From positions 4,417-68,416 of the forward strand of contig CAYLMJ010000011.1 in NCBI GenBank assembly GCA_964384995.1: DNA of 64,000 nucleotides. Direction: 5' to 3'. The stretch is from an uncultured archaeon. GTDB taxonomy: Archaea > Thermoplasmatota > Poseidoniia > MGIII > CAYLMJ01. A program made the translations under genes and the position numbers. The notes beneath the pieces were generated by a model that saw only the letters and a program-made list of their open reading frames with translations, had not been told where the DNA came from and searched no databases. This document shows positions 5,766 to 5,875 of this stretch, in pieces (positions within the stretch are counted from its first letter, which is position 1; the number at the start of each line of letters is the position of its first letter).

Positions 5766-5875
5766 CGTGTATCTACCGTGTATCTACCGTTTACCTACAG
5801 TTTACCTAGCGTATGGATAACGTATACCCAACGTATAGAAAACGTATACAGAACGTATAGAGAACGTATACGAAC
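5766..5875. repeat. ten contiguous 11-bp tandem units in strict register (three sub-families)
   Basis: cgtgtatctac x2, cgtttacctac, agtttacctag, cgtatggataa, cgtatacccaa, cgtatagaaaa, cgtatacagaa, cgtatagagaa, cgtatacgaac. AACGTATA starts at 5819/5830/5841/5852/5863. Confidence 0.9.

What the first reader, a model, noticed from the sequence alone, without database searches (positions are those of the whole stretch)
5766..5875. 110-bp array of ten 11-bp units in perfect register in a low-G+C spacer
From 5766 every 11th base restarts a CGT-initiated unit: 2x cgtgtatctac, cgtttacctac / agtttacctag, then six cgtatNNNNaa units. Five exact AACGTATA cores sit at 5819, 5830, 5841, 5852 and 5863. In those five cores the following base alternates C/G, giving a 22-bp super-repeat, and CGTATACG is palindromic. 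An 11-bp period puts every core on one helix face, as expected for cooperative protein binding, iteron-like sites or intrinsically curved DNA. The array lies between the ICMT-like gene stop (5935) and, ~170-280 bp further on, the start of the EF-Tu-D2-like gene (5597). A polypurine tract (5655-5735) lies between the array and that start.
Basis: seen in the sequence. Interest (0 to 1): 0.6.

Follow-up and report, generated by a model that had tools for sequence, protein, structure and literature searches.

The report
Dispersed 11-bp phased repeat array
The 11-bp repeat array is real, but it is one of seven related copies, and of about fifty such arrays, scattered through this uncultured marine archaeon's genome; it is most likely a landing pad for an unidentified DNA-binding protein near promoters, not a replication origin.

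Summary
Window 5755-5875 carries eleven 11-bp units in perfect register, one more than reported, and AACGTATA occurs 5 times against 0.09 expected.

The array is not unique. The genome has 58 arrays with an 11-bp period, 54 of them intergenic, against 5 or fewer at periods 10, 13 and 14. Seven arrays are paralogues of this one. They share a conserved "head" of about five distinct units, starting AAAACGTAYACCAAK, and a variable "tail" of CGTATA(C/G)NNAA units.

Nine independent assemblies of the same species have an identical spacer, so the copy number does not vary among them. Relatives whose flanking gene is 70-77% identical lack the array here. At a paralogous locus, a species with an 84%-identical flanking protein keeps a homologous array directly upstream of a conserved promoter, while two other relatives lack it. 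That species' head is 90-92% identical to non-orthologous copies in this genome, which is more conserved than coding DNA (86.6%).

The only Orc1/Cdc6 gene lies on another contig that has no arrays, and GC skew does not switch, so the origin/iteron reading fails. The units are poor TATA boxes, RNA folding is no better than chance, and predicted curvature is modest and specific to this family.

Best reading: an accessory protein-docking array that is gained and lost between species.

The parts
5751..5765 (+). Family-wide start box AAAACGTACACCAAT.
   Evidence: The same box opens all seven copies and the copy in a related species.
5766..5809 (+). Rest of the 'head': four distinct 11-bp units in conserved order (CGTGTATCTAC x2, CGTTTACCTAC, AGTTTACCTAG). 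One CGTGTATCTAC is a local duplication relative to the other copies.
   Evidence: 53-54 of 59 nt are identical to the head of a copy in another species.
5810..5875 (+). The 'tail': six CGTAT(A/G)(C/G)NN(A)A units with a 22-bp C/G super-repeat. The tail varies in number and in spacer sequence between copies.
   Evidence: Unit logo from 63 units.
5655..5735 (-). CCTCC/GCCTGCC-rich pyrimidine tract on the sense strand of the 89-aa gene (purine-rich on the + strand). A tract of the same kind, but longer (about 200 nt), lies upstream of the orthologous gene in two related species, downstream of their TATA boxes, so it is probably a 5' leader.
5630..5645 (-). Palindrome GCAAACATTCTTTGCC about 50 nt upstream of the ATG; GCAAACATTCTTTGCC in the 77% relative and GAAACATTCTTTGCC in the 70% relative. 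Candidate operator of the 89-aa gene, independent of the array.
5328..5597 (-). 89-aa EF-Tu-domain-2/U32-C-like beta-barrel gene. Its start lies 158 bp beyond the head of the array.
   Evidence: sources name its homologues 'translation elongation factor-like protein'.
5935..7050 (-). ICMT/PEMT-like membrane protein gene. Its stop lies 59 bp beyond the tail of the array.

Best explanation
The array is one copy of a seven-member paralogous family of composite, strictly 11-bp-phased, non-coding DNA elements. Each copy has a conserved polar head (start box plus about four distinct units in fixed order) followed by a variable tail of CGTATA(C/G)NNAA units. The family belongs to a genome-wide population of about 45-58 intergenic 11-bp arrays of several motif families. 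I read it as a DNA-level docking platform. A sequence-specific protein, not yet identified, would nucleate on the head and spread cooperatively along the tail, one protomer or dimer per 11-bp unit, as ParR does on parC. The result would be a nucleoprotein block next to a promoter: in 5 of 7 copies the head faces a gene start 70-290 bp away. The module is accessory. It is gained and lost between closely related species while the neighbouring core promoter stays intact. Its tail turns over by in-register duplication and homogenisation. Shown: the anatomy, period specificity, paralogy, intergenic location, stability across assemblies, presence/absence among relatives, and conservation of the head. 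Inferred: protein binding, cooperativity, and any effect on transcription.
For: Period specificity: 58 arrays at lag 11 (54 intergenic; chance P about 1e-42) against 0-5 at lags 10, 13 and 14. TRF finds 57 arrays of at least 4 copies at period 11 against 7 at period 10. Paralogy with a conserved head and variable tail at C1, C11, C23, C62/C35, C50, C51 and C54; homology stops at the array edges. Constraint: the copy in a related species (flanking protein 84% identical, flanking gene 86.6% nt) has a head 53-54/59 identical to non-orthologous G000 copies, while its upstream flank is unalignable. Position: that copy and G000 C51 both sit about 45 nt upstream of a conserved promoter, TCCAACAACCTTAATAG, and downstream of the upstream gene's terminator hairpin. 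This placement favours a DNA-level over an RNA-level role. Another array class (GACCTTAGGAT) keeps nearly the same unit (exact in most copies) upstream of orthologous genes at 60-78% protein identity, showing that arrays of this kind can be under purifying selection. The spacer is identical in nine independent assemblies, so the array is not hypermutable. The array has no RNA structure beyond chance (z = +0.4 on both strands) and no Rfam match. Precedent: one ParR dimer binds each 11-bp iteron of parC (PMC2241845), and CarH binds tandem 11-bp direct repeats (PMC9304148).
Against: No binding protein is identified. Clustering of flanking ORFs finds no protein shared by the seven copies. Position relative to genes is not strict: the C23 copy lies 230 nt downstream of the 16S rRNA gene and the C62/C35 copy faces a gene's 3' end. 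Over all 43 array loci, the flanks are 42 gene starts against 34 gene ends, with no strand polarity. The array is absent at this locus in relatives at 70-77% identity. The one same-genus reference genome has no copy of the family in its assembled contigs. The many motif families would need several binding proteins, or one with loose specificity.
Confidence: 0.45

Rival explanations
1. Functionless satellite. The arrays are minisatellites that expand and contract by replication slippage or unequal exchange and spread by ectopic recombination. The 11-bp period would reflect a property of the replication or repair machinery, or simply tolerance (whole-turn indels do not disturb the helical phasing of neighbouring sites), not a reader protein.
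For: Fast turnover: the array is absent at the orthologous site in close relatives, and the same-genus reference genome lacks the motif families tested. Neighbouring units are locally homogenised, with 22- and 44-bp super-repeats. The head of the C51 copy has been overwritten by CGTAT units. Arrays occur in every kind of intergenic context, including between convergent genes. They often break assemblies. Long simple-sequence repeats of 5-11 nt are known in prokaryotes (Mrazek et al. 2007, as summarised in PMC4679880).
Against: Slippage alone does not explain why only period 11 is populated across unrelated motifs. It does not explain a five-unit head kept in order at 90-92% identity across loci and species, or the near-identity of GACCTTAGGAT units across species whose proteins are 60-78% identical. 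No copy-number variation is seen in nine assemblies.
Confidence: 0.25
2. Relic or active end of a non-autonomous mobile or recombination element. The conserved head would be the recognition site of a transposase or integrase (like arm-type sites or multi-site transposon ends), which would explain dispersal to seven loci and presence/absence between species.
For: The element has discrete, conserved left boundaries with unrelated flanks. A clean presence/absence polymorphism occurs at one site among four related species. One copy abuts the 3' end of a tRNA gene next to a primase-like ORF. Several copies lie near tRNA or rRNA genes.
Against: I saw no terminal inverted repeat, no target-site duplication, and no paired inverted copy (inspection). 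No transposase or integrase lies next to the copies. There is no match in viral contigs. The right boundary is ragged. The 11-bp period shared with about 50 arrays of other motifs is not explained.
Confidence: 0.1
3. RNA-level element. The array is transcribed, either as a long 5' leader of the 89-aa gene or as a read-through 3' tail of the ICMT-like gene, and its repeated ACGUAUA words bind or titrate an RNA-binding protein.
For: The 343-bp spacer has no good BRE/TATA match on the gene's sense strand, so the array could lie inside a transcript. In a related MAG, a CGAAGG-type 11-bp array lies downstream of the only strong TATA box of its gene, which would place it in the 5' leader.
Against: At C51 and its orthologue, the array lies between the upstream gene's terminator hairpin and the downstream TATA box. 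The family shows no consistent strand relative to neighbouring genes. There is no structure signal and no Rfam family. An exact 11-nt spacing has no obvious meaning for RNA.
Confidence: 0.1
4. Purely structural DNA. The array would be an intrinsically curved or anisotropically flexible segment, with TA steps once per turn, that shapes local supercoiling or promoter geometry without a dedicated reader.
For: In a wedge model, the end-to-end/contour ratio is 0.917 for the window array and 0.876-0.936 for the family, against 0.973 +/- 0.018 for random genomic 110-mers (about the 1st-2nd percentile). The summed twist per unit is about 367-374 degrees.
Against: The effect is modest and partly trivial for any periodic sequence. 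Most other 11-bp array families in the genome are straight in the same model (0.96-0.99), so curvature cannot explain the shared period. Curvature does not require the head to be conserved in sequence.
Confidence: 0.07
5. Replication-origin iterons or a chromosomal centromere.
For: Only the formal likeness to iterons and to parC (ten to eleven 11-bp direct repeats).
Against: There are seven copies plus about 50 other arrays. The single Orc1/Cdc6 gene lies on contig C2, which has no array. GC skew does not switch. No par or rep gene lies nearby.
Confidence: 0.02

Closest known systems
parC centromere/operator of plasmid R1, bound by ParR (PMC2241845)
   Same: Ten 11-bp direct repeats in phase next to a promoter. 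About one ParR dimer binds per iteron, cooperatively. parC DNA is curved.
   Different: parC is a single site per replicon, split 5+5 around the promoter of its own parMR operon. Here there are seven dispersed chromosomal copies in an archaeon, a polar head/tail build, no par genes nearby, and no known reader.
CarH operators (tandem 11-bp direct repeats nnnnTnnACAn; PMC9304148)
   Same: An 11-bp period with a short conserved core and variable spacer positions, read by a multimer on one DNA face near a promoter.
   Different: CarH operators have only 3-4 repeats, overlap the -35 element, use a different motif, and are bacterial MerR-type. The arrays here have 9 to more than 20 units and lie upstream of the core promoter.
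Long simple sequence repeats of 5-11 nt in prokaryotes (Mrazek, Guo and Shah 2007, as summarised in PMC4679880); intergenic TAACTGA repeats of Beggiatoaceae (PMC4679880)
   Same: Many non-coding tandem repeat tracts scattered through one genome, with a sporadic phylogenetic distribution.
   Different: Those repeats are mostly heptamers and homogeneous. Here the period is exclusively 11 and the arrays are composite, with a conserved succession of different units that is kept between loci and species.
Dispersed ACGTAT-core 11-bp arrays in Paludibacteraceae, Ignavibacteria, Lentimicrobium and others (found here)
   Same: Same period and same ACGTAT core. Several conserved copies per genome, with flanking units of other types. 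84 of 85 are intergenic.
   Different: They occur in unrelated bacterial phyla with different flanking units (for example TACGTATATCC). I cannot tell whether they share a reader or arose independently. My literature searches found no description of them.

Membership tests
Replication-origin iterons (archaeal ORB/oriC or plasmid iterons) | Adjacent initiator gene (orc1/cdc6 or rep) | tested here: not met
   The only Cdc6_C match is at C2:43860-44138; the window is on C11. The neighbouring genes are a beta-barrel protein, an ICMT-like protein, a CoA-binding protein and an M48 protease.
Replication-origin iterons (archaeal ORB/oriC or plasmid iterons) | One or a few sites per replicon, with a GC-skew switch | tested here: not met
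   There are seven paralogous copies and 58 period-11 arrays. Cumulative GC skew rises monotonically through the first 46 kb of the window.
Type II partition centromere (parC/ParR-like) | Tandem 10-11-bp direct repeats in phase | tested here: met
   Eleven units in exact register.
Type II partition centromere (parC/ParR-like) | Lies at the promoter of its own parR/parM (adaptor plus actin-like ATPase) operon | tested here: not met
   Pfam and NCBIfam find no such genes beside any copy.
Type II partition centromere (parC/ParR-like) | Bound cooperatively by a dedicated small protein | not testable with these tools
   Needs EMSA, footprinting or a pull-down.
Prokaryotic LSSR / VNTR minisatellite | Tandem repeat tract longer than chance, unit of 11 nt or less | tested here: met
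Prokaryotic LSSR / VNTR minisatellite | Copy number polymorphic between strains or samples | tested here: not met
   The spacer sequence present is identical to the window's in 9 of 10 assembly contigs (6 span all 343 bp; 2 are cut short by a contig end). The tenth has one SNP outside the array and the same 10-11 units. The assemblies may come from closely related populations, so this is weak.
Array of archaeal BRE/TATA promoter elements | Units match the organism's own promoter motif | tested here: not met
   A PWM learnt from 802 upstream regions (A..cTTWWAWa, peaking about -40) scores the units at most 7.1 (+) and 5.3 (-). The median best score of real upstream regions is 8.1, and random 343-mers have a median of 5.4.
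CRISPR / other guide-RNA arrays | Repeats of 24 nt or more separated by unique spacers, with cas genes nearby | tested here: not met
   The units are 11 bp and contiguous, with no spacers. No cas-like neighbours.
MITE-like mobile element | Terminal inverted repeats and target-site duplication | tested here: inconclusive
   None seen by eye at seven copies or at one filled/empty site comparison. The flanks at the empty site are too diverged to define junctions.
Known structured RNA family | Rfam covariance-model match, or folding better than shuffles | tested here: not met
   No relevant Rfam match at E <= 1. Folding z = +0.37 and +0.39.

The most novel reading that the evidence does not exclude
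This archaeon has no detectable histone or HU and keeps only Alba. In it, composite 11-bp phase-locked arrays would form a lineage-specific system of portable cis-modules with head-to-tail 'trajectories' of unit types. An unknown filament-forming DNA-binding protein, or a small set of paralogues, would read them to set local promoter activity or chromosome organisation. The dispersed, conserved ACGTAT-core arrays in Bacteroidota and Ignavibacteria would be the bacterial counterpart, which would make this an undescribed class of element that spans both domains.
Probability: 0.2. Interest if true: 0.8.

Novelty: new variant of a known kind. Interest (0 to 1): 0.6.

Why it matters
Phased 11-bp iteron arrays are known mainly as single plasmid centromeres or short operators. 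Here the same geometry appears about fifty times on an archaeal chromosome. The arrays fall into paralogous families with a conserved internal order of units. They are gained and lost between sister species next to otherwise unchanged promoters. If a reader protein exists, this is a new kind of modular regulatory or chromatin element in a little-known marine archaeal lineage (Poseidoniia, MGIII-like). It would also offer a simple way to find that protein: use the array as bait. If no reader exists, the exclusive 11-bp period needs a mechanistic explanation from replication or repair.

Tried and rejected
1. Shared neighbour gene: all-against-all BLAST of ORFs within 1.5 kb of 43 array loci, and within 2 kb of 117 bacterial loci, found no protein common to the CGTATA copies. 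The only clusters were ABC ATPases and secretion-tail proteins.
2. TBP/TATA-array idea: rejected by the PWM test.
3. Enrichment of giant (>=600 aa) genes next to arrays: not significant (15/76 against 16% expected, P = 0.23).
4. Strand polarity relative to downstream genes: none (13 against 10).
5. Rfam and RNA folding: nothing.
6. Viral contigs: no match.
7. My metagenome scan used a pattern with a 12-bp period by mistake.
9. Synteny in the same-genus genome G001 is uninformative. The 89-aa orthologue sits at the very end of a 1.5-kb contig, cut at residue 6. The 3' flank of the ICMT-like gene there has a different neighbour and no array.
10. The 'MAKIRK' small-protein family as array reader. 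All three paralogues, and the orthologues, have arrays upstream. But the high-confidence model (pLDDT 90.9) matches only generic Ig-like beta-sandwiches and shows no recognisable DNA-binding fold. A distant homologue has only a 2.9-copy repeat 440 bp away. The result is inconclusive, and none of these arrays has the CGTATA motif.
11. Literature searches for 11-bp tandem arrays in archaea found no description.

Full report
OBSERVATION. The sequence is as described. From 5766 there are ten 11-bp units in exact register. An eleventh unit (cgtacaccaat, 5755-5765) precedes them, so the array spans 5755-5875. TRF reports period 11 and a 22-bp super-period. AACGTATA occurs five times in the 64-kb window, all here, against 0.09 expected. 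The array lies in the 337-bp spacer between two minus-strand genes: an 89-aa beta-barrel protein (EF-Tu domain 2 / U32-C-like, start 5597) and an ICMT/PEMT-like membrane protein (stop 5935). Its G+C is 0.43 against 0.61 for the genome.

IT IS NOT UNIQUE. The window is C11:4417-68416 of a 2.63-Mb, 79-contig archaeal genome. Earlier notes place the organism in marine Thermoplasmatota. The sizes of its relatives fit Poseidoniia, in an MGIII-like order. Runs of at least four [CA]GT[ATG]T units occur 18 times at period 11 and never at periods 9, 10, 12 or 13. A motif-free autocorrelation scan finds 58 arrays at lag 11, 54 of them intergenic, against 5, 2 and 4 at lags 10, 13 and 14. With 87% of the genome coding, that intergenic bias has P about 1e-42. 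TRF agrees: 57 arrays of at least 4 copies at period 11 against 7 at period 10. The motifs fall into families: CGTATA, AGTATAG, CATATAG, CGAAG/CTTCG types, GACCTTAGGAT and ATAGTACTGCC.

THE CGTATA FAMILY. Seven loci carry paralogues of the window array:
- C1:24538
- C11 (this one)
- C23:33659
- the ends of C62 and C35, which overlap by 55 nt and are one array
- C50:6494-6831, which is interrupted by a scaffold gap
- C51:5115
- C54:326

Similarity stops at the array edges. All copies open with AAAACGTAYACCAAK. In five copies there follows a 'head' of distinct units in fixed order (CGTGTATCTAC, CGTTTryCTAC, mGTTTACCTAC, CGTkTACCTAG), and then a 'tail' of CGTAT(A/G)(C/G)NN(A)A units that differs in number and spacer sequence. 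In C50 and C51 the head units have been converted towards CGTAT. Tails show 22- and 44-bp super-repeats, the signature of in-register block duplication.

CONTEXT. In five of the seven copies the head faces a gene start 70-290 bp away, and the tail faces a gene's 3' end or a tRNA. Four of the copies lie between co-directional genes, all in the same orientation. Two copies break this pattern. C23 lies 230 nt downstream of the 16S rRNA gene. C62/C35 has a gene's 3' end on its head side. With seven copies none of this is statistically significant. No protein is shared among the neighbours. Over all 43 array loci the flanks are 42 gene starts against 34 gene ends, with no purine-strand polarity.

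ORIGIN READING. The single Orc1/Cdc6 gene is on C2, a contig with no array. GC skew does not switch at the site. With seven copies as well, the iteron/origin idea is not supported.

COMPARATIVE EVIDENCE AT THIS LOCUS. The 89-aa protein occurs with an identical sequence in many public assemblies. In nine of ten contigs from different samples, the spacer sequence present is identical to the window's. Six of them span all 343 bp and two are cut short by a contig end. The tenth has one SNP outside the array and the same units. The array is therefore not visibly hypervariable, although these populations may be very close. In the two nearest other species found (protein 77% and 70% identical) there is no CGTATA array upstream of the gene. 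Three things are found there:
- the same or nearly the same box about 50 nt before the ATG (GCAAACATTCTTTGCC in the 77% relative, GAAACATTCTTTGCC in the 70% relative)
- a long CCTCC-rich pyrimidine tract of the same kind as in the window
- an AT-rich region with strong TATA boxes, in the position where G000 has the array

Further upstream they carry a CTTCG-type 11-bp array, which in the 77% relative lies about 50 bp upstream of a divergently transcribed gene. The only same-genus reference genome, G001, is too fragmented to inform. The orthologue is cut off at a contig end. The ICMT flank has another neighbour and no array. The head motif is absent from its contigs. A 400-kb sample of G001 has two lag-11 arrays of another motif.

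COMPARATIVE EVIDENCE AT A PARALOGOUS LOCUS. At C51 the array ends about 45 nt upstream of the promoter of a 475-aa LamG-domain gene. Four related species keep the gene order and the promoter box (T/C)CCAACAACCTTAATAG. The species with the 84%-identical protein (gene 86.6% nt identical) has a homologous nine-unit array in the same place and orientation. The species at 86% and 74% protein identity (75% in the table) have none. That foreign copy has the typical head. It is 53-54/59 identical to the heads of the non-orthologous G000 copies C62, C11 and C54, but only 40/59 to the homogenised orthologous C51 copy. A non-coding 59-mer that is better conserved than the adjacent coding DNA, across species and across loci, argues for sequence-specific constraint. 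The array's absence from sister species with an intact promoter shows it is an accessory module. Its position, downstream of the upstream gene's terminator hairpin and upstream of the TATA box, favours a DNA-level role.

OTHER ARRAY CLASSES. Arrays at C3:36798, C37:19955, C1:51943 and C8:93880 share a longer 'trajectory': AACTCGGAGCC, then TACCTCGAAGC x3, TTCTACGAAsG, nnTAmCGAAsG, AGTATAGGnnG, AGTATGGG. Three of these arrays end 100-130 bp before large secreted-protein genes.

An uncharacterised family of about 190 aa (N-terminus MAKIRK...) has about 1,200 representative clusters and no Pfam, NCBIfam or PHROG match. It has three paralogues in this genome, each with an array 50-150 bp upstream. 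Orthologues of one paralogue at 60-78% identity keep a nearly identical GACCTTAGGAT unit, x4-6.

Two findings weaken the idea that this protein reads the arrays. The AlphaFold model (pLDDT 90.9) matches only generic Ig-like sandwiches, with no recognisable DNA-binding fold. A distant homologue has only a 2.9-copy repeat 440 bp away. Whether the protein reads the arrays is open, and none of its arrays carries the CGTATA motif.

TESTS OF MECHANISM.
- TATA-box array. A promoter motif learnt from 802 upstream regions (A..cTTWWAWa, about 40 nt before the ATG) scores the array units no better than random DNA. It also finds no good promoter for the 89-aa gene anywhere in the spacer.
- RNA. There is no Rfam match and no folding signal.
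- Curvature. The array's end-to-end/contour ratio is 0.917, about the 1st-2nd percentile of random 110-mers, and the CGTATA family is consistently bent (0.876-0.936). Most other 11-bp families are straight (0.96-0.99), so curvature cannot explain the common period.
- Chromatin. The genome (90% complete) has no histone-fold or HU match but has Alba.

BEYOND THIS LINEAGE. ACGTAT repeated four times at an 11-bp spacing occurs in more than 117 loci of the species-representative genome collection. Conserved multi-copy families appear in Paludibacteraceae (TACGTATATCC), Ignavibacteria (GACGTATGTGA) and Lentimicrobium, with single arrays in Methanomicrobium, Streptomyces and others. Of the low-GC loci, 84 of 85 are intergenic and 25 of 55 lie between divergent genes. 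Because the search selected for the motif, this shows that similar dispersed arrays exist elsewhere. It does not show that they share a reader. None of 300 genomes of the same class has TATAG x4 at period 11.

VERDICT. The array is a real, non-random member of a dispersed, polar, 11-bp-phased element family whose head is under constraint. The best-supported mechanism is cooperative docking of an unidentified DNA-binding protein near promoters. It works like parC/ParR (PMC2241845) or CarH operators (PMC9304148) without belonging to either system. Confidence is 0.45. Neutral satellite dynamics (0.25), a mobile-element origin (0.10), an RNA role (0.10) and pure curvature (0.07) remain open. A replication origin is effectively excluded.

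Noticed in passing
window 5227-5280; also window 28302-28336, 29025-29050, 54935-54967, 61302-61340; C1:~24360-24440; C62:~9700-9780; C51:~5080-5140: A second dispersed family: palindromes built from CACAGAG/CACAGAT words, often with a T-run in the loop region, lying after gene 3' ends. They look like a REP-like or terminator hairpin family. The window copy at 5227-5280 is 91% identical to the one beside the C51 array.
   Followed up: partly
window 5630-5645 (minus strand): The box GCAAACATTCTTTGCC lies about 50 nt upstream of the 89-aa gene. It is exact in the 77% relative and reads GAAACATTCTTTGCC in the 70% relative. It is a candidate operator for a conserved regulator.
   Followed up: partly
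window 5655-5735 and similar tracts at 3759-3836, 8104-8142, 21981-22026, 25271-25335: GGCAAGG / GCAGGCAAAGG / GGAGG-rich low-complexity tracts recur in spacers. Upstream of the 89-aa gene's orthologues, the pyrimidine version forms a roughly 200-nt stretch downstream of the TATA boxes, probably a long CCUCC-rich 5' leader resembling the 3' end of 16S rRNA.
   Followed up: no
whole genome G000: No histone-fold (PF00808) and no HU (PF00216) match in a 90%-complete archaeal genome. One Alba gene lies at C7:85491-85682. The main chromatin protein of this lineage is unclear.
   Followed up: partly
C8:93235-93861(-), C20:40177-40923(+), C22:32230-32802(+); L163, L165, L167, L197: An uncharacterised family of about 190 aa (N-terminus MAKIRK...) with about 1,200 representative clusters and no Pfam, NCBIfam or PHROG match. 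The confident model has a small N-terminal beta unit, three helices and a C-terminal Ig-like sandwich. Within this archaeal lineage every copy examined has an 11-bp array just upstream.
   Followed up: partly
C3:36798-36998, C37:19955-20142, C1:51943-52192, C8:93880-94003: Composite arrays of 200-250 bp that retrace the same succession of 11-bp unit types. Three of them end 100-130 bp before giant secreted-protein genes.
   Followed up: partly
L026-L142 (e.g. L053, L055, L030 Paludibacteraceae; L026, L043 Ignavibacteria; L051 Methanomicrobium mobile): Conserved multi-copy 11-bp arrays with an ACGTAT core in unrelated bacteria and archaea, nearly all intergenic. In L053 two Acido-Lenti-1 RNA motifs lie directly upstream of the array.
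   Followed up: partly
C23:33400-34035: The 16S rRNA gene ends without a linked 23S gene. About 230 nt downstream lies a CGTATA-family array, followed by a GGAGG/GGATG-rich purine tract.
   Followed up: no
L169-L173: My mistyped 12-bp-period pattern found five marine or other metagenome contigs with AACGTATA(C/G)-core arrays of period 12 in low-GC organisms. The same core can therefore be arrayed at another period elsewhere.
   Followed up: no
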